Source of the DNA: Bilabrum cf. latius
Taxonomy: Eukaryota
Direction of reading: 5' to 3'
Assembly: GCA_965178125.1 (NCBI GenBank)
Contig: OZ237757.1
Coordinates: 682,001-746,000, forward strand
DNA: 64,000 nucleotides
A program made the position numbers and the translations under genes. This document shows positions 2 through 64,000 of this stretch, piece after piece. The notes beneath the pieces are model-generated. The model had not been told where the DNA came from, ran no database searches, and saw nothing but the letters and a program-made list of their open reading frames with translations. The stretch's first letter is position 1, and the number at the start of each line of letters is the position of its first letter.

Positions 2-1480
2 GCTGCCCTGCGGCGGGCTGCCCCCGAGCTGGCGGACGCGCTGGCCTCCCAGCAGCTGGGCGGCTCCCGCGCCTTTGTGCGCGTGGACGACGAGATGCTG
101 GATGAGATGAGGAGGACGGACCGCTAGCTCCAAGCCAGGATCAGGGCCGTGATGACCGATTTCGCAGGGGAGGACGTGGTGGGTGCCCAGGGAGCGGGGG
201 CCGGGGACGACGCTGCCACAGAGATCGAGGGGCTGCAGACGCCCGCAAGGAGCTTGGCGGGCGGCGACGGGGACGGGGACGGGGACGGTTTCGGGGACGA
301 CGGGTTCGGCGGGGGCTTCGGGGACGCTGACATGGGGGGCGTGGGCGGCGGCTTCGAGGACGACATCGGCGACGGCTTCGGCATGGGCATGGACGGCGAC
401 GGCTTTGGCATGGAGGGCGGCCCGCTGGGGGATGGCGAGCCAGGCGCCCCCGTGGACGAGGAGGCCGAGGTGGACGCTGCGGATGCAGGGCTGGCGGCCG
501 CGACGGGCGCCCTTGCGGACACCCTCATGGAGGCGGCGGCAGGGGATGCCGCTGCCCTGGCCATGGGACCCGAGGCCAACGCCGCCGTGCTCGCCGCTGA
601 AGCAGAGGCCGAGGCATAGGGCAAGGGCACCGGGGCCAACCTGGCAGCCGGGGAGGATGCAGACGCCGCTGCCGCTGCTGCTGCTGCTGCGGACGACGAG
701 GACGAGGACGAGGGCGGCAGGGTGAGTGGGCTAGCCAGCGCCGCCATGCCCGTGCACAAGTGGCACTCCAGAACCAAGGCCGTCCTGCGCGCTGTGGGCG
801 ACGCCATGGAGGCGGAAGGGGGCGAGGGTGCCAGCGCGGAGCAGGATGCCAGCGTGGGCTTCACGGCGCTCGTGGACGGGGGCGGCAGGCGCCTGGCGGC
901 CCTGGCCTTCCACGAGCTGCTGATGCTGCGGAGCTGGAACGTGGTGGGTCTGGAGCAGGAGGAGCCCTACGGCGAGATCGAGATCGGCAAGGGGCCCCGC
1001 TTCGACAGCTCCTGCGGGGCACTCGACGCGGGAGCGGCTGCGGCTCGTGCTGCCGCGCTGGCTCCTGCGTCTGCGTCTGCGTCTGCGGTGCGGCCCTCGG
1101 GGGGGAGCGGGGACGAGGCCCCGGCAGTCCGAGGAGCCTCCTCGTCGTCATCGTCGTCTTCTGCTGCCGCTGCATCGTCATCGTCTTCCGGTTCCTCCTC
1201 GCGCCGTCGCCGCGCCTCTGCGCCCGCTACCGAGTCCAAGTCGGATGGCGAGCAGGAGGATGAGGAGGAGGAAGGGCAAGGCGGTGGGGAGGATAAAGAC
1301 GTTGAAGCTGATGAGATGGCTTCTAGCAGGGGCCGCAGCATGCTGGGGAAGAAGCGTGCGCGCCCTGGCAAGTCAGCATCTGCGTCCGGAGGTGGAGGGT
1401 CCAGGCGTAGCCGGGGCAAGGGTAAGAAGGGTGCTTCGGGAGGAAGAGCGCCCACTCGCAGAAGTTCCAGGGTGAGGTGA
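2..1480 (+). CDS. Rad21/Rec8-family cohesin kleisin, 3' portion (5' end outside window); in-frame TAGs at 125 and 617
   Basis: Frame 2 is open from base 2 to TGA at 1478-1480 if TAG is sense. C-terminal winged-helix motif RRLAALAFHELLMLRSWNVVGLEQEEPYGEIEI is typical of the Rad21_Rec8 C-terminus; it is preceded by an acidic low-complexity linker. Confidence 0.8.
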
Positions 1481-1782
1481 ATGCTTTGTGACAGCACTGG
1501 GTCGTTTGGGACCATTTTCTGGGCATGCTTGAGATGTCATTGCTTCCGTTCTGTTGCTTCAGACAGAATCACGGCACAGCGAACAAGCGATGCATGTACA
1601 TCGGTGACACCAACACTGGGTGCGAATTTAGCGGTTGGTTTAGGAGCCATGCTTGGAGCGATTCGACGGTTGCCCCAGCGAGAAACTCTGGTTTTCCATC
1701 GCCGCTATTCCGTTGTAACGTGCTGTCGTGCCAAGTTTGGGTCGCCACGAGCGCTAATCTCATTCGCTTGCCGTATACAGAC

Positions 1783-4700
1783 ATGCTTACGGTACTTGCA
1801 GCGGGTCTCCTGGTAGTAAAGGGACTGGCACTGAATATCAGCCGGTTCGATGAGGTGTTGCCTGCGTCCGAGGCTGGCTGGACGGCCGAGTTGAGTGTGG
1901 TCGACCTGAACCGGTCGCCCATGTCGTTTGAGCCGGGGAAGACGGTCATCCGCACAATGAATGGACATTACATGACCGCTGAAGTCCCTGAAGAAGGCCG
2001 AGAGCAGACTATAGTGCTGGCATCATCCATGGCTGGTGTTGCGCCACCAAATATGACCTTCCTCGGCGAGGATGGGCCGAAATCTGGAGCCAGCACGGGA
2101 GATACAGCCTTTGCAGCAAGTCCCAACGGCCGGTATGTTGCTGTGTACGCAAAAGTGCCTGATTCTCTGTCCGGTTCAGGTGCGCAATACTTCTCCATCT
2201 ACGACGCCGAGACCGGGATGTCGGCTCGCCTCGGTGGCGACTACTTCGGCGAAGGGAAGTGGCCTCAAGGCTTCAACAACACCAACTCCGGGCGCGGCGG
2301 CCTGCCGATTTGGTTAGGGGGCGATGTAATATGTTTTGCTGTGGGCTTTGACATGCCAGATGGAAACTCCGGTCGACACCTGGGCTGCTGGGACCGGCGT
2401 CTTCCGGCCGGGCAGGGTTAGCTCGTGATCGTCGGAAATAGCACGGGCGCAGATGGAGCGGTTGCGCTACCAGGAAGCAAACGCATCTGTATGGTTGCAA
2501 ATCCGAGTGCTTCGCACGGCCGCGAGCTCTACTGCGTCGATTTGAGTGTCGTGTCCTCCCAGCCCGTCGCGTTTCTCGCCGCCGATATCGTCCCCGGACC
2601 TGATTCTAGCATGCCATCGTTTGATCCGTATTTGCTCCCCGCAAACGGTGATTGGATATGCATGTTTTTTCAGCGGAGCTCAGGCGGGCCCACTGAGATC
2701 GGCTGCATGGAATTCGGCTCGGACGAGGTCACCATATCAGATTAGCAAGTCGCACTAAGCGAACACTACGGCGCCGTGCCTGGCTCTTACGTCTTCCCCT
2801 GCGGCTCCTACTCAATGAATAAGTTCTGCGCCTTCAACTACACGAGCGGAAATACAACCAAGATGGTGGTGCAGGACCCAGCCAACGCCGGCCAGTCGGA
2901 CTCCGCCGAGGGCGCCCACTTCCTTGGCGAGGTAGTCCTCGCCCAGTACTTCCAGAAGTCCTCGGGACATGCCCGCATGGCTGCGTGGGTCCCCTCCAAC
3001 GGGAGCTATTCGTACGACCTGGCACAAGGGCTGGGCCTCGAGCGCGAGATCGGGAGCCCCCGGAAAACCCACGCCATCGACGGCACCCGCCTGCTGGCCT
3101 ACCTGCCCTCGGTCAACTCCGCCAGCACCCCTCTCCGGGTTGTGCTCATCGACTGCACCGACCCAGCCGACATCCAGGTGGACATGGTGCAGGGGCCATG
3201 GGACTCATACCTGTCCTCGACCCAGCCCAGGGACAGCGACATCAGCATGGTCGAGCTCCCAGGGGCCGGCAAGGGCGGGGCCGTGGCAGCCGCCATCGGA
3301 GATCCCCAGGGCGTGTACTTCTGGAACGGAGACCTGCAGGACGCCGCCGTCAGGATCACGGAGGGGTACTCCAAGTCCAAGGCGCTCCTCCCGGTGGGGC
3401 CCTTCCGAGGCACCCCCGTCGGCCTCGTGCTGTCTCTGGAGAACTCGTTTGGAACGTTCTCGCAGGCCAAGGTGGCCCTGCCCGACCCCGATACCCTGGT
3501 GGTGACCCCAGTGGAGGTGCTGCCCGCCCCTGACGCGACAGAGGGCATCTCTAGCCCGACCACCAACACCCGAATTATGCAGAACGCCAACGGATGGACG
3601 TGCCACCTGGACGCTCTAGTCGGCAAGAACGACGACGCGGTGTGCTTCGACCCTGCGACCCTCGAGGCACTCACGGCCGAGGAGATGCCGGACTCCCCGC
3701 ACGCCCCCAACATCACGTACAGGTACATGGCCGAGGACATGAACAGCTACGATGTCATCCGCTCCGCAGACGGCATGATCATTTCCATGAATTATGACAC
3801 GCACGACCGCATCTTCTTCTTCGACGGCGAGCACAGGCCCTTCCTGGTCGGACCGATCGACCCGACCGGCGACGACCGCCCCAACAACGGACTTGCCGCC
3901 GTGACCCTGCAAAACCAGCGCTTCGTGTGCTTCCAGTACGGCATCTACAACTACCAGCAGGGGCAGGAGATGGTCATGCACGACACACACACCAACAACT
4001 GGACCATGGCAGACATCGACCCCACCCCGCGAGCTCAGCCTACCGTTGCAGGAGCCTTTGCCGCATTCGACCGCTACTGCATGTTTCTGGCCCAGCACCC
4101 GACCTCAGGCTGGGAGTGGTTCTACTGGGACTCGATGGACGTGCAAGCAGGCCCGCAGATGCTGAACGGCTCTGCGAGGGGCTTGAGGGCCACGAGCATC
4201 GGTCCAAACTAGGACGATTTTTCCGTCGTCGAGAGCGGCAGCATGTGGTCCATCACCTACAAACTATCCGATGACGGCAGCGTGCAGTCGGTGGCCCTGC
4301 AGCAGCAGACAGACGGGACTCTAGCCCTTGCCCAATCAGCTGCAATCCCCGGAGCGATATCCTACAGCAAGATCGCGCCCATCGCTGGAACCACTGATAC
4401 GCTGCTGTTCAGCACAGACACCCCGTAGCGGATCAGGAGACTCAATACATCCATGCAGGGCGGTAGATACACAGATCTCGTGTCGCCTTCCCAGACCAAG
4501 GTGGACATGTGGGACGTGTACAACGCCACGCACATGGTGGCCATCATGGACAACACGAGCAGGAGCAGCGAGCCCGAGGGACTCTGCCTCTTCAGCATCG
4601 ACCAGGGCACCTGCGACCTTTTCATCACCCCCATGTTTGGCAAAAGCTCACGGAAACTCACCGCCATTCCCAACGGGTACATCTGCCTAGAGACATGGGA

Positions 4701-5754
4701 CAGGGACGTCCTCTACTCGAGGGACGTAGCCTGCTGGCCAGGGTGGGGCGACCGTCTCATCGCCGTGGATGTGGTGCAAGAGGGTACGGGCGAGACCTGG
4801 GGCAACGTGTACACATACACGCCGCGGTACGACGGGCAGGAGGGCGTGACGGTCAGCATGAAGCACCCGAGGTACGGCCAGGAACTCATCGAGTTCCGGT
4901 TGGTGCAACCCAGCCCCTCGCCCTCGCCCACTCCGACCCCAAGCGTGTCCCCCAGCATCACACCGTCCACGAGCCCATCTATAACACCCAGCGCAACCCC
5001 CAGCATTACGCCATCCACGAGTCCGTCCACGAGCCCGTCCGCGTCGCCGTCCACGAGCCCCTCGCCTGCTGCTGCAGCGGCCCCGTCCTCCGTGCCCCGG
5101 AGGTCCCGCGGCAGGGGCAAGGCCAGCACGCCAAAGACCAATTCCGAGTCGTGCGCCGTAGGATCCACGGCTGGATCGGCCGAGCTGCTGCTCCAAACCT
5201 CGGTGTCGGTGGAGGGTGCCACCCCAGCCCAAGTGGGCTGCGACAACGCAGAGCAGCTCGTGGCTGCCGCCGCGCAGGCTGCCAGCATCGACGCCGACGA
5301 GGTGACGTACTGGCTGTAGGCCACCGCGACAGGCGGTACCGAGTTGGTCATGCAGGTGCCCGTCCCGTCCAGGGAGCAGGGCGAGATGGTGCTGCAAGGC
5401 CTGGAAACGGTGCTCGGCGACGGCGCCCAGACCGCCTCTTTGTTGCAGGACGCGCCCGCTGGCGCGCAGGTCTCGTGGGAACGGGGCGGTGAGGAGGTGA
5501 CGTTCGTGGCCGAGTCGCCCTACGTGGAGGAGGTAGATGACGACGGTCTCGAGCTGTGGGTCATCGTGCTTATCGCTTTAGTTGGTGCCGTCGTCATCGG
5601 CACCGCGGCGTACTTTTTCATGTGCGGCGGCGCGTGCTGCAAGAAGGAGAGGAAGGACGAGCAGAAGGACAGTAAGGCCAAGGGTGCTGAGGGGGGTGCT
5701 GCAGCTAAGCCAGTGGCGGGCTTCGAGTCGGTAACGGCTGCATAGCAGGTTTGA
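1783..5754 (+). CDS. Type I membrane/surface protein (~1320 aa) with ELWxxDGT-like beta-propeller repeats, Ser/Pro stalk and C-terminal TM helix
   Basis: ORFs 1525, 2425, 2776, 4243, 4453 and 5344 share one frame and are separated only by TAG. Signal-like MLTVLAAGLLVV; repeats SHGRELYCVD, HPTSGWEWFYWD, HPRYGQELIEF; (SPS)n stalk; TM LWVIVLIALVGAVVIGTAAYFF; ends TGA 5752-5754. Start codon inferred. Confidence 0.75.
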
Positions 5755-6002: not shown

Positions 6003-8363
6003 TCAAGCATCACAGAACGTCCAAGTGTGGTTGTTTTGCGGGCCCGGCATGCAATGCTCGGGGATCTTGGTCTTGCTCACCGACAGGTTGATCTGAGCAT
6101 TTGCCTGGAACTGCCTGACCGCATCGCTCATCTTGCGTACCAGGGCCTCGTTGCTGTCGGCGATGTTGTGGTGCTCGCACGGGTCAGACCCGATATCGAA
6201 CAGGCAGGGCGCCTTGCCTGGCTTGCAGCCGAATTGTGCTGGGGGAAGGGGGCAGCTCAACGTGAAGGACTCGTTGAAGGACTGGCCTGGGGTCTGGTGC
6301 CAGCCGCCGTCCGTGGTCTGAAAGTCTCCGTACATGTACTTGTATGCGCCCTCCCTGTACACTCCCTGTGCGTATGATGCCCCGCTACCTACGGATGCAG
6401 CCGCCCTATCAAGCTCCGACTGTTGCTCAGCAGTGACCGAGTAGTGCACGATGCTGCTTCGGTCCGACTTGGAGCCGACTGCCTGGGCGAGGGACTGCCA
6501 CACCGACATGCCATCCCCGGGGAGGAAGGGCACGTTCCCGGCGGCATGATATGCGGACGACGCGTGCGTCTCGATCGATGATGGCGACCCGTCCTCTTGT
6601 GCTCTTGCGCGCACCATCTGCAGCACCCTTTGCGAGGCGGGACTGGACGCATCCGAGCCGTCGATGCCCAGAGCAGCTGCCTCGGACAGGGTAAAGAACC
6701 AGTCCGACACGTGCATCATCCCCATCCACACAGTGCCTCGCACGGACGGGCTGAGGCCGGGCCCAGCGATGGCGCCCACGCCCCTGAGCCCTCCGTCAAA
6801 GAGGTCGTGCTTCTGCCCGTACAGGGGCATGTTGGAGGCGCTGTTGCCGCCGATCGTGGCCGGGCCCCCATTGTCGGTCGACACTGCGAACGGATGCCAG
6901 GGTGGGACGAAGGGTGAATGCACGCATGAGCAGCGTGGCCCTTGGCAACAGGGAAAAACTCTCAGTGACCCACGGCCACGCTAGTTGGCAGCCAATAGCA
7001 CCGAGCGCATTTACTCACGAATCAGTATGGTATCCTCCAGCATGCCCTCCTCCTGCAGCGCCTACACGATCGCACCCACACCGTCATCCATGCAAGACAC
7101 CATCGCTGCAACCGTGCGCCGCTTCGGGTCGTCGATGTGCGGGAAGCGGGACATGCACTCTGGTGGCGCCTAAATTGCTGCGGGAAAAGAAAAGAAAAAA
7201 GACTCAACCAACAGTAAACATTATCATCAATGGATCTCTTCTGTCAGAATTAAGCTGGAGGCATGGATGGCTGCTGAACATGGGCACCGGGGCCGGGCCA
7301 GGCTGCGGGGCACGGGTCGCGTGCATTATCGGTGCCGGCTCTATCGGCCTCGCAAGGCCCTCGTGCTACGCCTGGATTCCCCATTTAGCTGCGAACTCAC
7401 GAGCATGCATGGTCTGCCACGCGTGGTAGTGGAACAGGGGCGCGTCGACTTCTCCCTGCTGATTGCGGTGCTCTGCCGCGTGCTTGCGGATGATGCCGAC
7501 TGTCGCGTTGGTCATCACATAGGTGCTGTACGTGCCGTTGGCAGCGAGGTCGGTATCGTTGCCCAGGTGCCAGTCGTACCCGCCCAGCCTCGAATGGATG
7601 AAATAATCCTGCTCGCCCAGCCAGTAGCCCTAGTAGTAGGAATCGAACCCGCGCGCGACGGGGGTGAGCTCCTCTTTCAGCGTGTTGTCCAGGTGCCACT
7701 TGCCCACCATGCTGGGGTTCTCGTACCCAAGAGGCTTGAGCACCTGGGGGAGGATGAGGCAGTTTCCGTCCCCGGGTCGGTTGCAGCTGGAGTTGAAGGC
7801 GACGTAGGAGGGCAGCACGAATGGGTCGTACACGCCAGTGTGGATGGTGGCGCGGCCGCTCAGCAGCGAGGCGCGAGTGGGGCTGCGATGCGACAGACTT
7901 GACAAGTTCAGAATTCGAACGCAGTAGCTTATTTTCTAGTTTCTTCTTTCAGCTTGTTTCGATTGGCCTCACCTGCACACGGGATTGACGTAATAATTGT
8001 CCAGCCTCCGGCCCCGAGATGCGATTCCATCAATGTTTGGAGTCGGGATCTGGTTGCTTCCATGCTGCAAGGGTCAAATAGGAACCGATCGTGGGCATAC
8101 ATGGCACCATCAAGCCCGCAACGCTTCTGTGCAGTCTGTACAGGTGCATACCATGGAAACGTCATTCCACCCCATATCGTCTGCTATTGAAGAGCTGAAG
8201 AGATAAACTTGCAATAGTGTTAAAGTCTTCAGTACGATTCTTGAACCCAGAATTGCTCACCTACAAGCAGAAATACCTGCAAATTGCGGCAAACATAGGA
8301 CAAAACATGGGATCCAATAGCGACTGGTTGCACGATATTCTTTCGGACGATCCGATGATTCAT
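6003..8363 (-). CDS. Arylsulfatase B-like sulfatase, multi-exon (5' end approximate)
   Basis: Spliced motifs VFLLVDDMGWND, TPNID, YYVNPVCSPTRASLLSGR (CxPxR), GKWHL, STDNGG, LFDIGSDPCEHHNIA. GT-AG introns at about 8065-8151 and 7883-7972 restore the motifs exactly; further introns likely. Ends TGA. Confidence 0.85.
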
Positions 8364-8582: not shown

Positions 8583-10199
8583 TCAACCTTCATCTGTGGT
8601 GGTCTTGCACAGCCTGAGAAACGAGTTGCCGTGCGCGGGCACCGCGGGCTGGCTCACGACCCCCGTCGCCGTCCCTTGCTCCTCGTGCGACCAGAGGTCA
8701 CGCACTTGCGCCACCGTGCCCGCCCCCCACCCGACGAGCGGCAGCTCCTCAAATCTCACGCCGACCTCCGAAGGACTCTCCGTCGGGTTGAGCAGGACCA
8801 CCGCCACGCACCCATCGGACTCGGAGTCGGAAGCCCTGGACAGCGGTCTGACCCACGCTGCCCTGGGCGGCTTCTCGCAGCTGCAGTTGTGCCTGGCCTG
8901 GTCGTCCTCGGACCCGCATCCGATGGAGATATCGTCGCAGTAGAAGAGACCCTTGCAGCCCCCTTGCGTCCACATGCGCTCCGTGCCGTCAGTGTAGCAC
9001 CCGAACGTCTCGCCCTCCGTGCACTGGGCGCGATGGGACTGCTGGTGCCACAGCGTGGCGTTGCACGATGGCCGATCTGTCTTGGTGGCGCCAGTTGTTG
9101 TTGTTGCTGTTGTTGCTGTTGTTGCTGCTGTAAATCCAGATCCGATCTCGCTTGTCAGACCGACAGATCCACTCGTCAGACCGACAGATCCATCCACCCG
9201 CGGCTCGCTCTTCCATGGAAGCACCGCGATGTGGTCGAAGTGCTCCGTGTCTTTGAACACATCGATGACCTCTCTGTTCATGAGCACCCCTTTCATGAAG
9301 TCGGTCATGTTCCTGGGATCAGTGGCGAAGAGCATCTGGCCGCCCGCAACCGCCCAAATCGCGAACTCGGTCATGTACTCGTCCTCCGTCTGCCCCGGGC
9401 AGCGGGTACCCGGAGCCGAAAAGTTCCCGCAGCCCGCGCCGCCCGTCATGAGAAAATCGGGGTCGGGGAACCCCTGATCTGCCCCTGGCCCCCAGTAGCT
9501 CGTCCTGTTGTCCTGCAGGAACTTGACCACGGAGACAGTGGAGGGCCAGTTGTCGTGGTGATCGGTGAACACCCTGAAGGAGTTGCCGTACTGCGCGCAC
9601 GATTCCGTGTACCAGCAGTGGAAATAAAGCCATACAGGGGCTTTGGTCCGTCCGAGCGCCCCTGAGAAGTTGGCCGTGAGCTGCTCAGGACTGAATCCAC
9701 CTGGCGCCCCGCAGCCGTCGAGCTTGACCACGGATACGTTCCAGCGCGCGAACGTGGCAGCATCTTGCGCGTAGTAGGGCCATGATCCCGCGAATTGAGG
9801 ATGGCAGCCTGTCGCGCCCCAATCCGTGTATACGCCCGCTGCAAAGCCCATAGCGTTGAGTTTTGCGATGAATGCTGGCATTCCTTCCGGGAATCGATCG
9901 GGATCACCCTCAATCTCCTTCGTCACCGGATTTCGATGCGACCAGCAATCGTCTAGATCAATGTGGTTCCAGCCCAGCTCCTGCATGCCTAAACTCTTGA
10001 TCGTGCGCGCGACGTCGAGCACCTCATCACTCGTGCACCAGTCCTAGGTGCAATCGTTCTGCGTGCACCACGTATTCCATCCCATGAGTGGCCGTCTCGG
10101 AATTCCAGGCGTAGCCTTCGACGCCGCAGAACTGCTGTAGAGCGCTACAGCCAGAATCATTGCCTGCATCGTCAACTGCAACTGCGGCTCCGGCGACAT
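8583..10199 (-). CDS. GH27 alpha-galactosidase / alpha-N-acetylgalactosaminidase (~538 aa)
   Basis: PLMGWNTW, IDLDDCW, DPDRFPEGM, VKLDGC, FPDPDFL motifs. One in-frame TAG (10044-10046) joins the signal peptide and MGWNTW region to ORF 8583..10022. Confidence 0.9.
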
Positions 10200-53174: not shown

Positions 53175-53234
53175 TACTATAGTAATATACTAGATAAATC
53201 TTTAAGTTTTTTAAACTAGAAAATGACTTAAAAT

Positions 53235-54856
53235 AAGTGGTATGACTTAGTGAATATGTAAAATTGAATACGGGTGAGCGCCCAGAATTGCAAACATAAT
53301 TTTCTTGATACTTATATATTTCCGCAATTTGGGGCGGTCATATCTGGAGATACAATTTGGGGCGGTCATATTTATTATTAGTTATTTTAAAATATCTCGT
53401 CAAGTGGTTAAGTCTTTTTGTGATATCCCGTTAAGTGGTCAATAAAATGAACGGTAAGTCAAAAAAATTAATCAAAATAAAGAAGTAGTTGATTATTAAT
53501 TATTGAAGACACCTAAGCGCCCAGAATTGCGACAATATATCTTAATATCCTAATATATTACCGCAATTTCGGGCCGTCATTTCTGGACATTTAATATAGC
53601 ACATACTAGAAATATCTTTATTACAAAATTACACCTCTATAAGATAACTATGTCAAAATTAACAAAATATAAAACTCAATACACCTACGCGCCCAGAATT
53701 GCGACAATATATCTTAATATCCTAATATATTACCGCAATTTCGGGCGCTAGTATTATACTATACCATATTTAATTATCCTATATTTTCCATTTAATCTAG
53801 TGATTAATCATTTCAAAGTAATACACTTGACATAAACCAGTTCATTGAGTCATTTTAAAGTCATCGTCAAAACATTTATCATTTTTAAGTTATCGTCAAA
53901 ATATTTATCATTTTAAAGTCATCGTCAAAACATTTATCATTTTTAAGTTATCGTCAAAATATTTATCATTTTAAAGTCATCGTCAAAATATTTATCATTT
54001 TTAAGTTATCCCGTTTTGTATTCCTTTATATCATATACTCAAACAAAGGACTTTAACATATTTAAAGAATTATGAAAAATAAAACTCAATACACCTACGC
54101 GCCCAGAATTGCGAAAATATATCTTGAATAGCTATAATATTACCGCAATTTCGGGCGATAGATTAAAGGATGTATTTTTAAGGGGATACCCTTATATTTG
54201 AAGTTTTGAAGAGATGACATATAAAAGACTTTATAAAGTGATTAATATCTCCTTCTAGTTATATTTAAATATTCAATTATTTAAGTATAGATTGACAAGT
54301 AATAAAAAAAGAGATAAATTAAGTTGATATATTAGTTTAGTTTTATTTATTAATTTAAATTTTTCATTGGAAGTATTAAAAAAGACTTTAATACTTCTGT
54401 CAATCTCTTTAAGTATTTATTTAGTTATTTTCTAAAGTGGTAAATGTCAATTGATACTTAAAACCAAATCATAATATAAAACTCAATACACCTACGCGCC
54501 CAGAATTGCGAACATATATTCTTAAATGACTATATATTTCCGCAATTTCGGGCGGGCATATCCTAAGACTTAGGCTAGGGATTCACTCAACAGATTAAGT
54601 AAAGTAAAGGTCTAACAGATAGACATTAACGGCGCGAAGGTATTAAATTAGGTAGATATATGAATAAATAGCTATTAAATTATTATGTTCAAGTGAAGGA
54701 CATTATGAAGGACTACGGCTTAAGATGTTGTGAAGTGGTTAATATTGACCTCTTATGTTATCCGCCAAAATGTGGAGTTATGATAACTCTATTTCTACTA
54801 TATAGTAGAAATAGAGTTTACTTATATAAAAACTACACACATTTTGGCGGATAACA
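53235..54856 (-). repeat. Right terminal inverted repeat (~1.62 kb)
   Basis: Reverse complement of 29975-31535. Confidence 0.95.
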
Positions 54857-57800
54857 CCGCGGCACCTCCACGCATCGTTTCGCATTGAACGCCACGGCGC
54901 TGCACGCGCGAACTGGAGGAAAAGCTGTGCTGCAGACGCAGAAAGGTCCCGCTGGTGACGTCAGAGCCGCCCTGTCCTCCGCCGGTGGCTGCACCGCCAA
55001 CATCGTGGTCCTGCCTCCCATGCAGGTGCACAGGTCGCACCGCCTTGTTCCCTGGGCCGTGGCGCAGGCAGTGGCCCGCGATACTGCGATTCCCAAAGCG
55101 CTGCGGGACGAGTGGTCCCGCCTGTGCTCTGCCCGGTACGGCGGCAGTGAGCTGCACCCCATCGTGCTCTCCAGGGTGGAGGCTACGACCCGCAGGATCG
55201 CAGCCTCCGTGCTGTTCCCTGGGGAACAAGAAGTCGAATCAAGCGGTGTGACGGTTGAGGCCCTCGCCGAAGAGGCCCAGGAGGAGCTGATGAGGACGAA
55301 TTCCATGGGTCCCGAGGGCGGGCTGAACACGGAGCAGCTGGCAGCTGTGGGCATGTGCCTGCGGAAGCCACCGCTGGCGGTGCTGTTCGGGCCCCCGGGG
55401 ACCGGCAAGACCACCACTCTCGCGACCATGCTGGCGCACCTGCTGCGGGATCCGGCGGAGCCTCGGGTGCTGCTGGTCTCGTCCTCCAATCTAGCCGTTG
55501 AGCTGGCCCTGGTGAAGGCGATGCAGAGGCTGGGCAGCTCGATGGAACATTGGGAAGAGCTTCCCACAGAGGACGTGCTGCGGTCCGCCTCCATGTTCAG
55601 GTCTGCCAAAGACACCCGCAGGGAACAGGGTGATGAAGCTGCCCGCGCCATGAAGCGCGTCTCGGTGTCGGGCACGCTAGACCTGTCAAAGATGAAGCCG
55701 AAGCGGCTGGTGGCTGCCACTTTGGACACCGCAGGCAAGTGGATCTTTGACGCTCTGGGCGCAATCGGGCCCGGCGGTCATGCTGGCGATCTCGCTGCCT
55801 TTGATTTCGACTACATCGTTGTGGACGAGGCCAGCCAGGCGAGGCTGTCGCAGCTGCTGCCGCTACTCACGCTGGCCTACTTGGCCAAGGAGAAGGCCGG
55901 TGGTGCTGCCGCTCGGTCAATGGCGAGCAGCAGCCACAGCGACGCGGCGCAGGCGCAGCCACCGACGCTGATCCTGGCGGGGGACCCTCGTCAGCTGGGG
56001 CCCGTGATCCACGACCGGCTGGCGGAGCTGGCGGGGGCGGGTGTCTCGCTGCTTGAGAGGATGCTGGGGGCAGACATGTCCTGGCTAGAGAGGGGGAGGC
56101 ACGAAGCCCTCATGCGGATTGCGCGCGGCACCGCACTGGCGCACGATATGTCCGTTGAGTCTGTGGTGGCCGAGCTGTCAGAGACCATCGAGGGGACCAC
56201 AGCGGCTTCGATCCAGGCGGCATACGACGCCGCCGCACGGTTGGCGCGAGCTGGGCCCGACAGGGTCGTTCAGCTGACGCAGAGCTTCCGGGCGGTTCCG
56301 CAGCTGACGTCACTCTGGAGCCATGTGACGTACGGCGGCACGGTGCAGGCCGCACGATTTGTAGGTGCGGAGTTCGGTTCCAAGGCTTCCGGCCGCGGCA
56401 TCGTCCCGGAGGGGCAGCTGGTGGTGAGGTCAGACGACTCGATGGAGGCACTGAGGTGCACGATGGTGCAGCAGGCGCTGTATGACGAGGCCACCCGCGC
56501 GTCTGCAGGGTCCCACGCCGTCCAAGGGATATCCCTTGCCCAGGCCGAGGCACTTCGCGAGGCAGCCGCGGGCGGAGCCCCAGCCGATTTGATCGATGCT
56601 GCGGACCGCATGGGACGTCCCGCCGCCCAACTGGTCGCAAAAGTGTTCGAGCGCGATCCTAAGGTGGGCAAATCAGTGATCCACGCACTGTGCGACTCGC
56701 TGGAACACTAGGAAGAAGCACCCGGACGACTACAGGTGGTTGTGGTGGGAGTCGAAGGCAAGTGCAAGCGCGCACGCGGCACGCCCTCAAAGCAGAACGA
56801 CCTGGAAGCAGAGAGGGTGGCGCGGATCGTACAGAGCGTAACCGCAGCCACCGGAGGCGCGAACGAGTCGGGGATCTCCGTGGTGACCCCGTACACTGGC
56901 CAGCAGCGGCAGGTGAGGCACGAGCTGGAGCGATTCCTGGGTGTCACAGACGCGAAACAAGTGAGGGTGGGCACAGTGGACGGTGTGCAAGGGACCGAGG
57001 CAGATCTCGTCATCATTAGCACCGTGCGAACTGCCGTGCAGCAGCCCGTGGCGGACCCTCCATCGAGTGCAGGATCGGAGGGTGTAGAAACGGCAGCATC
57101 ACCATCGTCAGCAGCAGTAGCAACAGCAGCTGGTGGCTCAGATGCTTCTGAAGCGGCATTGCAGGAGGCGAAAATGGCAGCTGCAGCGCGGGAGGCTGGC
57201 CTCGGGTTTCTGGTCAACCCCCGGCGCACCAATGTGGCCATCTCTCGCGCCAAGTTCGGCCTGGTGCTGGTGTGCGACCCTCGGGCGCTCATGCACGACG
57301 CCCACTGGGCCGCTTGCGTGGCGTACGCGGCGTGCCTGGGCGGGCTTGTGCTGCCCTCGGCAGATTTTATGGACAAAGTGCCTCCTCCTCCTCCAGCTAC
57401 TCCTGCCGTACGCTCTATCACGGCGGGATAGGGCGTGGAAATGGGCAAGGGCGCTCGTGGTGGTTCCGGGTCTGGTGCTAGTGCCGGCGGCACAGTGACT
57501 GAGGGAGCGGCGATTCGCAGGGGACGAGGGCCCGCCTCGGGTGCCGGGGCCGATGATCCCCACAGAGCAGCAGCCGTGTCGAGATCCAGGGCTGCTTCTC
57601 TCAGGGACGATGAGCCTGTGGTGGCGGACGAGCTTCGTGCAGACCGTGAGCCCGTGGTAGTCTTTTCCGATGCTGTAGGAAGCGTCAGGGTTCAGGCTAT
57701 TTCGAAGACGAGCTCCAGCACGTTCACGATGCAGGCCTATGGAGGCCCGGTCTGGCTTGTGTATGACGGCAGCGGCACCTAGATCAGGTCCGTCGGGTCC

Positions 57801-58952
57801 ACTGTGCATATTGGCGGCGCCCTTCACACTCTCTTCTTGCAGCATGCAGGGGAGCGGAAGGAGTTCGTGTTCAGTGGATCCAGCCGTGAGGCTGCAAAAA
57901 GCGCGCCAATTGCGGTCTCGGCAAGTCCAGGATGTGCCGGGGCCGGCGAGGAACCGCAAAAAGACGGCCTCTCCCAGGAGGAGGTCCGGGCGAAGATCAA
58001 GGCGTGCTTGGGAGGCCGAAAGCTGACCTGCTCGCACATCGGGTCTCTCTTCATGCAGAAGTACAGAGAGAGGCTATCCGAGGCTGCGAGCGACGTGGGG
58101 TGCGGGTACGTGCAGGAAATGCTTGAGGACATGGTCAACGACGGAGAGCTTAGCACCGATGAGGATTCCATCATGTCAAGACGGTGGTACTGGGTCAGTG
58201 GTAGCCACTCGGATGAGGAGGATGATAACGATGAGGAGGATGATAACGGTGAGGACGAGAGCGCGGTCCGGCGCAAGATAGTAGCAGCAATAAAGCTCAT
58301 TGCAGCAATGGGTGGGGACTAGTGGACCTGCTCTGAAATCGGAGGTGCCTACCTGGATGAGTACGGAGAGCGCATGTCGGACGCTGCAAGGGATGCGACG
58401 GGAATGTCCGCGCAGGCCCTTCTGGAGTTGCTGGTGGACACAGGCGTGCTCGGGTCTGACGGTGCGTCCAACATGGGACGTCGCACCTATTGGGTGAATG
58501 GCGGCAGTCAGAGCTCAGAGCAATCGGAGAACGAGGACAGTGATCTAGACGACTTGAAGGAGCAGTTGCGCGATCTGCTCGGGTCGGACACCTGCACGTG
58601 CGCCGAACTAGGGACCAAGTACATGCAGGAGACGGGAGAGCGGCTAGCTGATGTGGCTCGATCGTTGGCTGGGACAAGCGCGCAGGCGCTGCTCGAAGAT
58701 ATGGTTGAAAGCGGAAGCCTACACACCGATCTTGACGACCACATGGCGAGGCGCACATACTGGAGCACAGATTGGTAAGTTGGCTCAGGGGTTATACTCG
58801 GGCATGGCTTTGTGCCGGTGGTCGAGGGAACAGGGTCAAGCATCCTGATTTGGATGATTCCGGAATCCGGATCGGATCGTTGGGGGGAAAAAAGTACAAG
58901 CCCGAATTACAGCAACTTGGGAATTGATCATGGATCCGAACTTCCGAAACAA

Positions 58953-61900
58953 TCAATTTGGCCGTCCAGAATAGTCCTGCAATACCTTTCGGATTCCTGC
59001 CACGGACACGGGCTTCAATAGCACCCGCTCTGCCCCGCACTCCTTGAAATGCTCAACATCTTCCGGCAGCGCATTCCCAGTCACTCCAACCACCGGGATA
59101 CCACACACAGACGCGCGCCTGTCCGCCCTCATGCGTCGCACCATCTCCGGCCCTGACATCCGCGGCATGGAGAAATCCAGCAGCACCAGCCGCACTGGGC
59201 ACTCCTCACCAGCAACAGCCCCGCTCCTCTCCTCCATCTCCTGTTCAATCACCTCCAGCGCATGCACCCCGTCGCTGGCCTGCAGCACCCCAGTGCCCTC
59301 CCATGCCGCCGGCATGCATCGCTTCACGATCGAGGCCAGAAGCACGCGGTTGGAGCGGCTGTCGTCCACCACCAGTACCGAACGAGCAGCGCTTGATCGA
59401 TCTTCATCCAGCAGCTCGTTGCGCTTTCCAATGGTCTGCAACTCGGTGCCGCTGGTCGGTGGCCTCTGCAGCGACACCGGCGACCTGTCACTCTGCTTCT
59501 ATTGCTTCTTCTTTTTCACGACGCGTCGCCGGGTCCTGGCCCTAAGGTCATTGCTCCCATTTCCACTACTTTCACCGTCGTTGCTCACACCAGCTTGCTA
59601 TGCACCACCTCTTAATGCAGCAGCCGAGGCGGGTCCAGGCCCAGCTTGACCGCCTCGATCATCCACACAGGCACGCCCATGCCCCGCGGTGGTCGTGCTC
59701 AGGACGCCTCCTCCTCTACCGTGCGGTCGCTGTCTATGTTCCTTTTCCTTACCGCTGCTTGCCATTAGACCATCATCAATTGTCCCGTTTTTGCCTTCTT
59801 TGGGATTAGAAGATGACGTACTGCTTCGTGCTAGTCTCCCTGCACTTGCGTTCCTGCGGCTCTTTTCGCGGAGCCCATCGTTGGGATCATGCGGTGTCCC
59901 CATTTCACTCGTCATACTTGCCCTGAACCATAAGAAGAACACGCTGCCCGCACCTGGACAGCTGCTGAACCCGCAGCAGCCCCCGTGCAGCCGCAGCACC
60001 TGCGCCGCCACAGCCAGCCCAAGCCCGGACCCCTGCCCCTCCGATGTGAGGATCCCCGAGTGCAGCCCATCCAGAGCAGAGAACACCCCGCCCCAGTCCT
60101 GCCGGTCGATCCCGCGCCCCTCGTCCAGCGCCCAGAGGCAGACAGACACCGATGATGAATCGACGTCCTCCCCAACACTCATCACACCGGCATTGAGGCC
60201 TGCGCTGCTGGACGGGGTTGTTGTCCCCGATACTGCACTCCCATCCACGCTGGCAGTTTGCGACTCGGTAGCTGGACCAGTCACGCGAACAGCATCGTCT
60301 GCGCCATTCCCTGCGGTTGGCATGTCTCCGGCTGGGCCATCAGATGCTATGCTAGCGTCCGAGGCTGCTTGTTGCGCCATTGCGTGCCTCTGCAGTGATA
60401 GGTACGCGCTTACAGTCGCTGGATCCACGCAGCAGAGGCCTTGGGCGGCCCCCTCTGCCCCTTGGCTAGGGGACGGAGTGGCCTCTGTAGGGAGGCTCTA
60501 GGCTTGACCCGAGGTCGGCGAGGAGCTGCCTGTGTTTCGAGCCGATTTGATGGACCAATGCGCTTCAGATTGACCGGGGCGAGCCTAGGGAGCAGACTGC
60601 TTCGAGGCATCAGGAATTGCGGGCGAGACGACGCTGCCTCGACGTTGCTTCTGCTTTGTCGCATCTGCACTTGCCGGCTGCCCGTGGGGTCCGGCGTGTG
60701 CTCGGTGCGACGGAGACACATTCACACGAATGATGGGTCGCCTGGTCGCCTGAATCATCCGGGCCGCGGAGTGCACTGGCGAGGCAAGGCGTAGCTCGGT
60801 TTGTGGACGATCCAGTGCATCATGAGACTGGCGCGCTGCGGAGCCGTTTTGCACTGCAATGCGCTGCAAATGCACAACCTGGCCTGTGCCCGCAACCCCA
60901 CGCCCTGCAGTCGTGTCCACCGCAGAGGGCGCACTGGCATCGATACTCGTAGATACTGCGTTTCCATCCTCCCCAGGCACATGCACTGACCCGGTCGGTT
61001 GGGCATGCAATGCGGTGGATGTTGCTGTGTGATGAGGCAGATCGCCGGAGCTCTTGGATCCCTGCTCTTGTTCTCCAAAGAGCGCCCCTAGTCCAGCTGC
61101 GCTGGTGCTGGTGCTTGTCGCGCTCCGAACAGAAGCAACAAGAGAGCGAAGGTCGACCGCTTTCCGAAATACGTTGTCCTGCGTACCGGTTCTCGTCCTG
61201 CCACCGCCTCCATCGGTTGACAGGGCGCCCACTGAAGACAGGCGGTGGCCGCGAGGACCGGTACGCCCAGATACAGGGGCATGGGTCCCCGGGCGGGACA
61301 GGCGGCCATCCGATCCCCAGCCTGGTGTAGTCGATGGTCCGAGTCCGGAGGAAGCACCCGACTGCTAACTGTGTTTGCTCTGCGCCGACGCGATGGACGT
61401 GGCGCGCACGCGGCGGCAAGTGGCACTATCGCAAACCGTCTAGAGCGGTTGGCCCATGCGGTTGCTAGTCCCTTGACCCTCCACAGCTCGTACGCATGTC
61501 TGGGTCACAATCTGCAGCAGCCGTCCAGCGGTATCAGCGCCTAATCCCCTCGCTGCTTGCGCCCAGTCCCCTCCCGTCCATAGGTGCGGCGGGGCACTCG
61601 AGCACCCCAGCGTGACAGTGGGGCTGGCCTTGCTTCCACTCTCGGACCCGTAATCATCCCCAGCGCTCCAATGAAGTGCGTTCGATGCAATCGTCATCAT
61701 TGCGCCCTGCAGTCTGCCCTGGTCCACCAGCACTGACACACCGGCCGGCCCTCTCCCACCCGCGCCGCGGTGATCACGCAGGTCTACCCATCGCATCTGC
61801 ACGCCAGCGTGCACCGCCTGGGTGCGGAGCCTCTGAGCCACCGACTGCAGGAAGGCAGGCCCGATGCGAGCTGGCTTGACTTGGAGCCGCATGGCCCCTG

Positions 61901-64000
61901 CCTCGATCTGCTCCAGGCTCAGCACGTCGTCCAGCGTGGCTTGCATCGACTGCGCCGCTGCCTGGAGCGAGGGCATGGACTCGCGCAGGGTGGCTAATGC
62001 AGCGTCCAGGTCGGCGGTGCTCGTCGATTCAGCGTGCGCGTTGCTTGAGCTGTCCTCGGGTAACACGCACCCCGAGTCCTATGGTGCTTGCAGTGCATCG
62101 CTGTCCTGCAAGCTTGGCGAGAATGCAGTGCATCCTGGGGCAGTGCGGGCAGATGCCCAGGAGGAGCCAAGAGCCACGAGGCCTTGCATGTTCACTTGGC
62201 TCTGGCCCCGATGATATTCGTCACCACCTAGTTCCCTAGGAGTTATGCTGCCACTGTCAACCACGCCGGCCCCTGCATGGCGACCATCCGAAGGTGCAAC
62301 GGACTCGACTTTCCTGCGCAGCCGCCTGCGGATCCCCCCCGCCGCCCTCTCCGCCTCTATCGCAGCATCGCTGGCGAACTCCAGCCCGAGCACCACCGAG
62401 TTCAGAGGCACCCTGCACTCGTGAGAGACGAACCGCAGCCTGGCTCGCAATGCGGCTGCATGTCTGTCCGCCTGCGCCACGGCAGTCTCCAGCTCATCGG
62501 ATTGCACGGCGAACAAATAGAGCGCGCCCAGCACCGCAACCCGGATTGCAAGCCAAGCAAATCTCCAAGCCGACTCGCCTACCGTGTACGCCATCGCAGC
62601 ATCTTCCCAGTCCTCCCGCAGGAGTTGCTGCAACGATCGATCAGCAAGATCTTCCGTGGGACAGGGGAAGAAATCCCGGATGCCTGCGATCAACGTGTAT
62701 GCGCACTGGCAGACAGCCTCGGGGCGAGCAATCAGCGACTCCTGCAGGATATTCACCGCGATAAAGTGAAGGATTGCGGCAGTGGCCATCCCTTTCAGTA
62801 CCACGGCCAAGAGCGTTGTGCGAGATCGCACCTGCCGCACCAGTGCCGCGCCGAGACTGCTCTGTGCCCCCGTCAGTCCCTGTCCACCGGGGTCCACGAG
62901 AGACTCCACGCGACCGTCTCGAGAGCCGAGGAGCAGCGCTGCAGACCTCAACACGTGGTTCTCCGTCGCAGGATAGGTGGGATCATCGCCTTCAGCGCCT
63001 GCCCGGCCGCCTAAAGGACCGCAGCACAAGTCACAGCGCCCGCTAGTGCGATCCGGAGCGCTGCTTTTAAGGTCTGGCTGGCCACTCTGATGCCCACACC
63101 CGGGCGAAATCGCCACACTTGCAGCAACGAAGAACCCGTACGTGTCCGAGGCGGCCAAAATCCACTCGTCGCTGTCCTCCCAGATAGAGCACCACCCCTC
63201 CTTCCGTCCCATGCCGCCCTACTGCTACATAGCGCGACCAACGGTTGAACTGCTGCCAGCGCCTGCTCCTCGTCTGGTCCCTCCTGCGGGCGCCTGCTAG
63301 ATCTTTCGCAGTACCCTCAGGAGGCGCTGCTGGCCGCTGCGCAGCCTGGGAGTTCCTCGTCCTTTGCTAGACGACACATCGTTAGATGCAGCTGGTAGGT
63401 GGCCGCCATCGCATACTTGGTAGCAGCAGCAGGTGCTTATGCATGCGCCCATGCATCGGCACGGCACTCGCCAGCAGCACAGCGCTTTGCAGCACACCGA
63501 GGCGTGGCACTGACCAAAGCACACTGCGCATGAGACGGCAGCGGGAGCATCCGCCCAGTCCCAGGCGATCGTGCTCGTTAGCTCTCGGCTGGCCTCTCTA
63601 GAGCTTGGTGTTGCAGGCCCGCGTCTGGCGGCACCAGTTTCAGGGTCCAGCTGCACGTGAGAGCGCGGTGCAGCAACTGCAGCAGCGGCATGAATCGTGC
63701 TGGTATTGGCGGTCGAAACTGCGGGGGCCGTATCCGACGCAAGGTGAGGCACCGGAGCCACACCGCTTTGGTTGGCACCGAGAGGCGTGACCTTGCCCTT
63801 GCCCTTTGATGTCGATCTCCTCCTTTGCTGCTGGACGGCGTGCCCCCTCAATCTTGCTGCAATCACGTGCTACCCAAAGTGGACATCAGCTCGGTGAAGG
63901 GCCCGCCTCAAGCCCACCGCCGGTGTCAGCACAAAGAGGAGGAATCCCCACAGCGTGAATGCGACATGAACCACGGCAAGCAGCACGATCAGGCCCGGAA
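58953..64000 (-). CDS. Second hybrid histidine kinase, inverted paralog of 15865-22209 (5' end beyond window)
   Basis: ORFs 63297, 62079, 61440, 60585, 59598 and 58953 share one frame and end in TAG except the last. Same H-box, N-box, G1/G2 and receiver motifs; ends TGA. Confidence 0.88.

What the first reader, a model, noticed from the sequence alone, without database searches (positions are those of the whole stretch)
2..64000. Host nuclear code reassigns UAG alone (Gln) while UAA/UGA stay stops
Seen: host genes are consecutive same-frame ORFs joined at TAG. A paralog pair gives a direct readout: LGAALVR*VRART (TAG 18442-18444) versus LGAALVRQVRSRT (CAG, 62832-62834 minus). The surface-protein paralogs end AA*QV versus AQAV. 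Host genes end in TGA (one in TAA) and viral genes mostly in TAA. Known: most eukaryotic reassignments couple UAA and UAG; decoupled UAG=Gln is rare (e.g. Iotanema spirale). Inference: possibly an independent origin in a GC-rich flagellate lineage.
Basis: partly seen in the sequence, partly recalled or inferred. Interest (0 to 1): 0.85.

Follow-up and report, generated by a model that had tools for sequence, protein, structure and literature searches.

The report
TAG read as glutamine, virophage included
A GC-rich eukaryote and the virus-like element (virophage) integrated in its genome both use the normal stop codon TAG as a glutamine codon while keeping TAA and TGA as stops, a rare but already known type of genetic code.

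Summary
With only TAA/TGA as stops, six host frames of 1,183-2,130 codons appear, each with 4-13 in-frame TAG. Freeing TAA or TGA instead gives nothing longer than 694 codons. Nine host frames hold 54 TAG, 0 TAA and 0 TGA in 10,401 codons, and end in TGA (7) or TAA (1).

It is a mavirus-like virophage with 1.5-kb inverted ends and a 5-bp target duplication. Its 17 ORFs hold 73 TAG, 0 TAA and 0 TGA in 5,364 codons, and end in TAA (13) or TGA (4).

Virophage TAGs sit on near-invariant glutamines of standard-code relatives: 145 of 149, 131 of 147, 25 of 25, 24 of 39 and 21 of 25. Log-odds are Gln +15.9, next-best −9.6.

Host-only evidence for glutamine is thin: one clean paralog site, TAG 18442 against CAG 62834.

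No genome, tRNA, eRF1 or RNA data could be examined, and the host lineage is unidentified. UAG=Gln alone is known from Iotanema and some ciliates. I call this a new member of a known kind, with a code-matched virophage as the added point.

The parts
2..1480 (+). Host frame (5' open) with a Rad21/Rec8 C-terminal domain; 2 in-frame TAG, ends in TGA
   Evidence: Pfam PF04824 E=2e-08, above cut-off. This marks the flank as a cellular eukaryotic genome.
1492..5754 (+). Host surface-protein-like gene (Ser/Pro repeats, C-terminal membrane anchor); 6 in-frame TAG, ends in TGA
   Evidence: no Pfam family. Paralog of 22583-27253 (349 of 1,264 aligned residues identical).
6003..7968 (-). Arylsulfatase-like host gene in two frames (6003-7010 and 7204-7968); ends in TGA 2 residues after the domain
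   Evidence: Sulfatase_C, E=1.5e-4, below cut-off. PDB 1fsu E=3e-15 for 7204-7968. The TAG there falls opposite a gap.
8583..10301 (-). Alpha-galactosidase host gene; 3 TAG in the stop-to-stop frame, 1 inside the domain; ends in TGA 8 residues after Melibiase_C
   Evidence: Pfam Melibiase_2 E=3.6e-35 and Melibiase_C E=7.6e-12
11262..14810 (-). Host frame of 1,182 codons with five copies of a roughly 65-residue repeat; 10 in-frame TAG, ends in TGA
   Evidence: no Pfam family
15820..22209 (+). Hybrid histidine kinase 1; 13 in-frame TAG including 18442-18444; ends in TGA 9 residues after the receiver domain
   Evidence: HATPase_c and Response_reg
22583..27253 (+). Surface-protein paralog 2; 6 in-frame TAG, ends in TGA
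29317..29974 (+). 5' part of the host MOV10-like helicase gene, cut off by the virophage insertion
   Evidence: Removing 29975-54856 plus one copy of the 5-bp duplication gives one 1,524-codon frame. Duplication lengths of 3, 4, 6 or 7 give a stop after 227-251 codons.
29970..29974 (.). Left copy of the 5-bp target-site duplication CCGCG (right copy at 54857-54861)
29975..54856 (.). Integrated mavirus-like virophage, 24,882 bp, GC about 0.30, terminal inverted repeats of about 1.5 kb (29975-31535 and 53235-54856)
   Evidence: Composition; inverted repeats I1, I2, I3, I5 at 97-100%; ends read
33967..35622 (+). Virophage rve integrase with C-terminal chromodomain; 12 in-frame TAG, ends in TAA
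   Evidence: Pfam rve and Chromo. TAG 187 aligns with Gln in 24 of 39 and TAG 457 with Gln in 21 of 25 standard-code relatives.
42931..43998 (+). Packaging-ATPase-like gene (Walker A G-x-AGAGKS); 6 in-frame TAG, ends in TAA
   Evidence: Pfam AAA_10 and AAA_22, both below cut-off
43904..44566 (+). Probable cysteine protease; 3 in-frame TAG
   Evidence: Faint Peptidase_C57 hit, E=0.0057. Its position between the ATPase and capsid genes also fits; the mavirus gene order is recalled.
44927..45853 (+). Probable penton (minor capsid) gene, assigned by position only; 5 in-frame TAG, ends in TAA
   Evidence: no family hit
45896..47782 (+). Major capsid protein; 6 in-frame TAG, ends in TGA
   Evidence: Pfam MCP_V20_C E=3.2e-07; PDB 6g45 'putative major capsid protein' E=1.5e-15
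49891..52689 (-). Primase-polymerase/helicase; 11 in-frame TAG, ends in TAA
   Evidence: Pfam Prim-Pol E=8.6e-14. 900 library relatives found. TAG 580, 355 and 435 fall on Gln columns.
54862..58778 (+). 3' part of the host MOV10/SDE3-like RNA helicase gene; 4 in-frame TAG, ends in TAA
   Evidence: Pfam AAA_11 and AAA_12. Named relatives are MOV10L1 and SDE3 at 26-31% identity.
58953..63998 (-). Hybrid histidine kinase 2 (5' open); 11 in-frame TAG; CAG at 62834-62832 opposite TAG 18442; ends in TGA

Best explanation
The window is nuclear DNA of an unidentified GC-rich eukaryote whose cytoplasmic translation reads UAG as glutamine and stops only at UGA (preferred) and UAA. This is the code listed as NCBI table 15.

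A 24.9-kb mavirus-like virophage has integrated, by its rve integrase, into the coding sequence of a host MOV10-like helicase gene. The virophage is written in the same code. It uses TAG throughout its replication and capsid genes and has almost given up CAG. That implies long residence in hosts with this code.

Shown:
- TAG is in frame and TAA/TGA are not.
- The frames spanning TAGs are under purifying selection.
- Virophage TAGs stand on conserved Gln columns.

Inferred:
- The host's own TAGs are also Gln.
- The mechanism is a tRNA-Gln with anticodon CUA plus an eRF1 that no longer recognises UAG.
- The rule holds genome-wide.
For: 1. Frames. With TAA/TGA as the only stops there are host frames of 2,130, 1,682, 1,557, 1,421, 1,308 and 1,183 codons holding 13, 11, 6, 6, 4 and 10 TAG. 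Virophage frames of 943, 639, 565, 485, 386 and 331 codons at GC 0.29-0.36 hold 11, 6, 12, 5, 7 and 5 TAG. In the control, only freeing TAG gives these lengths.

2. Codon counts.
- Host: 10,401 codons with TAG 54, TAA 0, TGA 0.
- Virophage: 5,364 codons with TAG 73, TAA 0, TGA 0, CAA 128 and CAG only 6.
- CAA:(CAG+TAG) is 1.6:1, like AAA:AAG at 1.7:1. CAA:CAG alone is 21:1.

3. Natural ends. TGA follows the last domain by 2-9 residues in both kinases, the alpha-galactosidase and the sulfatase. The integrase ends in TAA at the same place as its 548-554-residue relatives.

4. Selection. Of 37 listed differences between the window and contigs of runs X1, X5, X6 and X7, 34 fall in these frames. 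Of those, 28 are synonymous and 6 are not (recounted). They include sites downstream of several TAGs.

5. Amino acid, primase-helicase against 149 library relatives of 26-38% identity.
- TAG 580: Gln in 145 of 149.
- TAG 355: Gln in 131 of 147.
- TAG 435: Gln in 80 of 148.
- Log-odds: Gln +6.3, next Lys −7.7.

6. Amino acid, tblastn under the standard code on 100 fetched DNA loci.
- Gln in 25 of 25, 21 of 24 and 13 of 25 at the same three sites.
- Integrase TAG 187: 24 of 39. Integrase TAG 457: 21 of 25.
- Log-odds: Gln +15.9, next Asn −9.6.

7. Control by residue class.
- At 16 TAG positions, 28% of aligned residues are Gln.
- At 29 ordinary CAR-Gln positions, 15% are Gln.
- At every other residue class, at most 6.3% are Gln.
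- The pooled TAG profile is closest to that of Gln (KL 0.26; next Lys 0.45).

8. Host readout. TAG 18442 lies opposite CAG 62834 in a stretch 81% identical between the kinase paralogs.

9. The host frames are real genes. Excising the element plus one 5-bp duplication restores a single 1,524-codon frame.

10. No tRNA gene lies in the window, so the virophage brings no suppressor of its own.
Against: - Host-only evidence for Gln is weak. Of 20 aligned TAG sites between the kinase paralogs, 2 face CAG; the rest face 14 other codons (among them GTG, CTA, AAG and GGT), mostly where the alignment is unreliable.
- In the repeated host domain, one TAG faces D, D, D, E, H, E, E in the other copies (aligned by eye). 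That fits Glu at least as well as Gln.
- In a roughly 80%-identical ATPase fragment (P0026), the three window TAGs inside it face H, E and D, so 0 of 3 are Gln.
- Some virophage TAGs fall on columns dominated by other residues: K in 117 of 148, L/I in 126 of 147, D/N in 116 of 141.
- The close relatives that show Gln at the TAG sites (P0005-P0007, P0025, P0027) may themselves have been called with a TAG=Gln table, so I do not count them.
- Only 64 kb was seen. There is no tRNA, eRF1, RNA or peptide evidence.
- Use of TAG as a terminator elsewhere in the genome cannot be excluded.
Confidence: 0.85

Rival explanations
1. Context-dependent code. UAG is glutamine inside genes but still ends translation at some true 3' ends, as in ciliates with ambiguous stop codons.
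For: Nothing in the window excludes it, since only 8 host and 17 virophage gene ends were seen. Three genes carry a TAG 2-4 codons before their final stop: integrase ...DRxR-TAA, capsid ...RKxLNM-TGA and surface protein ...AAxQV-TGA.
Against: No gene here needs TAG as its end. Both surface-protein paralogs end in V-TGA, so the TAG three codons upstream is internal. The integrase relatives run to the same end as the window's gene.
Confidence: 0.06
2. The host reads UAG as another amino acid such as Glu. Glutamine applies only to the virophage, decoded by a suppressor tRNA supplied by its helper giant virus.
For: Host-only sites are few and mixed. One repeat-domain TAG faces D/E/H; other paralog partners include V and L.
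Against: The one host TAG in a well-conserved stretch faces CAG. Two meanings of one codon in the same cytoplasm would damage one of the two proteomes. The virophage carries no tRNA. No helper virus was seen.
Confidence: 0.04
3. Both UAA and UAG are glutamine (NCBI table 6), with UAA merely rare in a GC-rich genome.
For: In host DNA, TAA is the rarest stop triplet at 89 per 30,000 positions.
Against: The virophage is 30% GC. It has 983 TAA per 24.5 kb of one strand, yet 0 in-frame TAA in 5,364 codons, and 13 of 17 ORFs end in TAA. Freeing TAA alone lengthens no host frame. Freeing TAA as well as TAG hardly changes the host frames (longest 2,145 against 2,129) but lets the virophage frames run on to over 1,000 codons.
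Confidence: 0.01
4. The TAGs are not translated. The frames are pseudogenes, assembly errors or introns, or the TAGs are edited to CAG in RNA.
For: No RNA data could be examined. Premature stops in endogenous virophages of another host were traced to assembly errors (passages in PMC8547959 and PMC10120064).
Against: Only one of the three stop codons appears in frame, 127 times in 15,765 codons. Errors or decay would give all three. 28 of 34 strain or copy differences are synonymous. The same TAG-bearing sequence stands in contigs of separate runs without listed differences at TAG sites. TAG sits on invariant Gln columns.
Confidence: 0.02

Closest known systems
Iotanema spirale (Fornicata) nuclear code: UAG=Gln, UAA and UGA stops
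   Same: The same three codon meanings. UAG is a minority Gln codon: about 8% there (passage in PMC5304391), and 54 of 462 (11.7%) in the host genes here.
   Different: There UAA is the main stop, in 104 of 119 transcripts with UGA in 15 (PMC5304391 passage). Here TGA ends 7 of 8 host genes and the DNA is 61-65% GC. This suggests, but does not prove, another lineage. No virophage is reported there in the passages I read.
Ciliates with UAG=Gln only (Protocruzia tuzeti, two phyllopharyngean lineages)
   Same: The same decoupled reassignment (passage in PMC11687900).
   Different: The window is a 64-kb multi-gene GC-rich contig. That ciliate macronuclear genomes are mostly AT-rich is recalled, not tested. 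The lineage of this host is unknown.
Endogenous viral elements of Streblomastix strix using the host's TAA/TAG=Gln code
   Same: An integrated DNA virus written in its host's deviant code, taken as a sign of long association (passage in PMC10120064).
   Different: There both UAR codons are reassigned and the elements belong to a metamonad polinton-like capsid group. Here only TAG is reassigned, and the element is a mavirus-type virophage in which TAG has almost replaced CAG.
Endogenous mavirus-like elements (EMALEs) of Cafeteria burkhardae
   Same: An AT-rich virophage of about 20-25 kb in a GC-rich host, with inverted ends, an rve integrase, primase-helicase, ATPase and capsid genes, and insertions inside host genes (passages in PMC8547959).
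   Different: That paper's text holds no occurrence of 'genetic code'; its premature stops were assembly errors. The capsid here is only distantly related to the solved mavirus-type capsid 6g45 (E=1.5e-15). It has no close relative in IMG/VR.
TAG-to-Gln recoding in large phages (recalled; I read no paper on it, and the one passage seen, PMC11502894, says only that Crassvirales can use alternative genetic codes and that ORFs were also called with TAG read as Gln)
   Same: A virus with in-frame TAG read as Gln.
   Different: In phages the host keeps the standard code and recoding is thought to time late genes (recalled). Here the host genes carry TAG too, and TAG occurs in both the replication and capsid modules.

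Membership tests
UAG=Gln-only nuclear code (NCBI table 15 type) | In-frame UAG in real, selected coding sequences | tested here: met
   54 in 10,401 host codons and 73 in 5,364 virophage codons. 28 of 34 differences are synonymous. Domains lie downstream of TAGs.
UAG=Gln-only nuclear code (NCBI table 15 type) | UAG corresponds to glutamine in conserved alignment columns | tested here: met
   Virophage genes: Gln in 145/149, 131/147 and 80/148, and in 25/25, 21/24, 13/25, 24/39 and 21/25, with the residue-class control. Host genes alone are inconclusive: 1 clean site.
UAG=Gln-only nuclear code (NCBI table 15 type) | UAA and UGA remain terminators and are never sense | tested here: met
   0 in-frame TAA or TGA in 15,765 codons. 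Ends are TGA 11 and TAA 14, at natural C-termini. Within this window only.
UAG=Gln-only nuclear code (NCBI table 15 type) | UAG is not used as a terminator | tested here: inconclusive
   None of 25 gene ends needs TAG, but 25 genes are too few.
UAG=Gln-only nuclear code (NCBI table 15 type) | tRNA-Gln with anticodon CUA | not testable with these tools
   No genome is held. No tRNA lies in the window.
UAG=Gln-only nuclear code (NCBI table 15 type) | eRF1 altered in its stop-codon recognition motifs (for example GTS in Iotanema, passage in PMC9161772) | not testable with these tools
   eRF1 is not in the window and no genome is held.
UAR=Gln code (NCBI table 6) | UAA is also a sense codon | tested here: not met
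   0 in-frame TAA, and 13 of 17 virophage ORFs end in TAA at 30% GC.
Mavirus-type virophage / endogenous mavirus-like element | Virophage-type major capsid protein | tested here: met
   PF22031 MCP_V20_C at 30.4 bits, cut-off 27; PDB 6g45 E=1.5e-15 over residues 68-540.
Mavirus-type virophage / endogenous mavirus-like element | rve-family integrase, inverted ends and a short target-site duplication | tested here: met
   rve and Chromo; inverted repeats of about 1.5 kb; 5-bp CCGCG duplication; the host frame is restored on excision.
Mavirus-type virophage / endogenous mavirus-like element | Packaging ATPase, cysteine protease and penton protein | tested here: inconclusive
   ATPase hits are below the Pfam cut-offs (24.9 against 27.5 and 25.4 against 27). 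The protease hit is faint (E=0.0057). The penton is assigned by position only.
Mavirus-type virophage / endogenous mavirus-like element | Dependence on a giant helper virus | not testable with these tools
   No helper virus sequence is in the window.

The most novel reading that the evidence does not exclude
The host is a eukaryotic lineage not yet known to have decoupled UAG from UAA. Its whole parasite chain (virophage and, by implication, the giant virus it depends on) has settled into the same dialect. The virophage has swapped CAG for TAG so thoroughly (73 TAG against 6 CAG) that standard-code cells would truncate nearly all of its genes. The code would then act as a host-range barrier for a virophage and giant-virus system.
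Probability: 0.35. Interest if true: 0.8.

Novelty: new member of a known kind. Interest (0 to 1): 0.65.

Why it matters
Nuclear codes in which UAG and UAA have different meanings are few. The passages I read name Iotanema, a rhizarian, Scotinosphaera and some ciliates. These codes bear on how release factor eRF1 tells the two codons apart.

A GC-rich organism with long, intron-poor genes would be a useful further case.

The virophage adds something the known cases lack: a mobile virus whose codon usage has adapted to the new code (TAG replacing CAG). This sets a minimum age for the reassignment. It also makes testable the idea that a changed code limits which hosts a virus, virophage or giant virus can use.

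In practice, standard gene callers will shatter every gene of this organism and its viruses at TAG.

Tried and rejected
- Whole genome: none is held. Genome-wide codon inference and tRNA, eRF1 and rRNA searches were therefore impossible.
- RNA: no RNA holder is listed. All four runs laid were contigs and probably DNA, so splicing and editing remain untested.
- Runs X6 and X7 gave no cover over 44001-54672 apart from one small piece, while covering 54673-64000.
- Paralog readouts: 20 kinase and 7 surface-protein TAG sites were aligned. Only one lies in a reliably conserved stretch.
- Capsid protein in IMG/VR: no close relative.
- Integrase alignment A1 was too diverse to scan with.
- Close primase relatives in metagenomes: none.
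- Stops inside two metagenome integrase matches (L054, L100) are TGA and TAA in over-extended alignments, not TAG.
- ATPase: only the window's own protein and one fragment were found.
- Host lineage: the helicase's best relatives are unnamed at 31-34% identity, and named ones are MOV10L1/SDE3 of animals, fungi and plants, so no placement was possible.
- Leads rejected:
  - Phaeocystis: that paper reports only a plastid UGA=Trp (passage in PMC12480563).
  - Cafeteria: no variant code appears in PMC8547959.
  - Iotanema: its stop usage differs (PMC5304391).
- Sulfatase and capsid alignments to solved structures put the TAGs opposite gaps or variable residues.
- Earlier findings of this scan: none.
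- Rfam: no match.
- Literature: five searches found no paper on a virophage with TAG read as Gln. Two more found no GC-rich non-ciliate with UAG=Gln besides Iotanema. Supplementary files were not seen.
Full report
**Layout of the window**

The window has two compositions. GC is about 0.58-0.68 at 1-30000 and 54500-64000, and about 0.30 in between.

Under the standard code the GC-rich part breaks into runs of adjacent same-frame ORFs separated by single stops. When TAG is read through, they fuse into frames of 1,183-2,130 codons. The cited sites are exact: TAG at 18442-18444 and CAG at 62834-62832 on the minus strand.

**Is it more than chance?**

I listed ORF lengths under five codes as a control.
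- In host DNA the longest frames are 617 codons under the standard code, 617 with TAA freed, 694 with TGA freed and 2,129 with TAG freed.
- In the insert the longest are 235, 381, 286 and 942 codons respectively.

Nine host frames hold TAG 54, TAA 0 and TGA 0 in 10,401 codons. Seventeen insert ORFs hold TAG 73, TAA 0 and TGA 0 in 5,364 codons.

From the out-of-frame triplet frequencies, about 31 TAA, 68 TAG and 129 TGA would be expected in that many unconstrained host codons (my arithmetic). So TAG is hardly avoided while the other two are excluded.

**Are these real genes?**

The flanks encode:
- a Rad21/Rec8 C-terminal domain, an alpha-galactosidase and an arylsulfatase;
- two hybrid histidine kinases;
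- a MOV10/SDE3-like RNA helicase.

The flanks are therefore cellular eukaryotic DNA. The catalytic and receiver domains of the kinases lie downstream of many TAGs.

One search listed 37 differences between the window and contigs of four public runs. Of these, 34 fall in the proposed frames; 28 are synonymous and 6 are not. This is purifying selection on frames that run through TAG. None of the listed differences hits a TAG.

**The insert**

Positions 29975-54856 are a 24,882-bp element. It has inverted ends of about 1.5 kb and a 5-bp duplication, CCGCG.

It encodes:
- an rve integrase with a chromodomain, a primase-polymerase/helicase and a virophage-type major capsid protein. The capsid matches solved structure 6g45 at E=1.5e-15; that 6g45 is mavirus is recalled.
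- an ATPase-like protein with sub-threshold Pfam hits, a faint protease hit, and a presumed penton assigned by position.

Removing the element and one copy of the duplication joins 29317-29974 to 54862-58778 as one 1,524-codon frame. No other duplication length does this. The virophage therefore sits inside the helicase gene, and the boundaries are exact.

TAG makes up 1.36% of their codons, in both the replication and capsid modules. They end in TAA (13) or TGA (4).

**Which amino acid?**

*Protein-library evidence.* The primase-helicase has 900 relatives in the representative library. I aligned the best 149, at 26-38% identity and excluding the 86% relative.
- TAG codon 580 falls on Gln in 145 of 149.
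- Codon 355 falls on Gln in 131 of 147.
- Codon 435 falls on Gln in 80 of 148.
- The summed log-odds over covered sites is Gln +6.3, next Lys −7.7.

*DNA-level evidence.* Library proteins might have been called with a TAG=Gln table. I therefore repeated the test on DNA: 53 IMG/VR loci and 47 metagenome loci, translated by tblastn under the standard code.
- Gln appears in 25 of 25, 21 of 24 and 13 of 25 at the same three sites.
- At integrase codons 187 and 457 it appears in 24 of 39 and 21 of 25.
- The log-odds is Gln +15.9, next Asn −9.6.

*Control by residue class*.
- At 16 TAG positions, 28% of aligned residues are Gln.
- At 29 ordinary CAA/CAG positions, 15% are Gln.
- At every other residue class, at most 6.3% are Gln.

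*Codon usage.* CAG is nearly absent from the virophage (6) while TAG (73) fills its place beside CAA (128).

**Results that do not point to Gln**
- Some TAGs fall on columns rich in K, L/I or D/N.
- In an 80%-identical ATPase fragment, three window TAGs face H, E and D.
- One TAG in a repeated host domain faces D/E/H.
- Of 20 kinase-paralog sites, only 2 face CAG, and only one of those is in a well-conserved stretch.

All of these are compatible with Gln at tolerant positions. They also show that the host's own genes, taken alone, barely identify the amino acid. The transfer from virophage to host rests on the shared translation machinery and on the absence of any tRNA gene in the element.

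**Stops**

TGA follows the last domain within 2-9 residues in four host genes. The integrase ends in TAA where its relatives end.

Table 6 is excluded in the window: an element of 30% GC has no in-frame TAA in 5,364 codons. Whether TAG ever terminates cannot be settled from 25 gene ends.

**What is known**

I read passages, not whole papers.
- UAG=Gln with UAA kept as a stop is described for Iotanema spirale, where UAA is the main stop and UAG makes up about 8% of Gln codons. The same code was once wrongly attributed to Blepharisma as table 15 (PMC5304391).
- It is also described for Protocruzia tuzeti and two phyllopharyngean ciliate lineages. UAG=Leu occurs in a rhizarian and UAG=Ser in Scotinosphaera (PMC11687900).
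- Iotanema's eRF1 has a changed GTS motif (PMC9161772).
- Endogenous viruses of Streblomastix strix share their host's TAA/TAG=Gln code (PMC10120064).

Five searches found no report of a virophage with TAG=Gln. Supplements were not seen.

The host here prefers TGA (7 of 8 ends) and is GC-rich, unlike Iotanema. Its lineage could not be determined.

**Verdict**

The kind of code is known. The likely new points are the lineage and a virophage adapted to the code.

Noticed in passing
29317-29974 and 54862-58778: The virophage is inserted in the coding sequence of a MOV10/SDE3-like RNA helicase gene. Excision plus loss of one 5-bp CCGCG copy restores a 1,524-codon frame. This copy of the gene is therefore disrupted.
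   Followed up: yes
21 sites inside 30248-54553, e.g. 44826-44892: A GC-rich hairpin of about 60 nt (14-bp stem, AT-rich loop) recurs in the gaps between virophage genes and in the inverted ends: 13 copies on one strand and 8 on the other (families D1/D2). One copy folds at -22.4 kcal/mol, z = -3.5, with 0 of 200 shuffles as stable. It may be a transcription signal or a small mobile repeat.
   Followed up: partly
31700-32500: A GC-rich island (0.53-0.70) lies inside the AT-rich virophage, just within the left inverted end, with one nearly open frame. It has no copy elsewhere in the window. It could be captured host DNA or a small insertion.
   Followed up: partly
44001-54672 against 55340-64000: In run X1 the contigs on the virophage have word depth of about 280-1,050, against about 23-74 on the host flank. 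In X5 the figures are about 15-70 against 0-12. The tool warns that this is not a copy number, but it fits many copies or free virophage DNA.
   Followed up: no
27604-29094: A long array of 42-bp (14-residue) tandem repeats, GC about 0.70, is open in several frames on both strands. It lies just upstream of the interrupted helicase gene.
   Followed up: no
15820-22209 (+) and 58953-63998 (-): Two hybrid histidine-kinase paralogs in opposite orientation share 803 of 1,498 aligned residues, with long identical blocks between diverged stretches. This may reflect gene conversion.
   Followed up: no
11262-14810 (-) and 57900-58778 (+): A repeat of about 65 residues (W/G-x-x-L-V-x-I-V...G-G...I-G...) occurs five times in one host protein and three times at the C-terminus of the helicase. 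It has no Pfam match. It resembles small RNA-binding winged-helix repeats (recalled, untested).
   Followed up: no
53821-54039 and 31343-31473: Short tandem repeats lie inside the virophage's inverted ends: six copies of 29 bp, and 28-bp units of which three copies are exact (families D5/D6).
   Followed up: no
Proteins P0005 and P0025 (public collection): A public gene call on a 48.6-kb contig already gives the window's integrase and ATPase full length with Gln at every TAG. An automatic caller evidently chose a TAG=Gln table for that contig. This is not independent evidence.
   Followed up: partly
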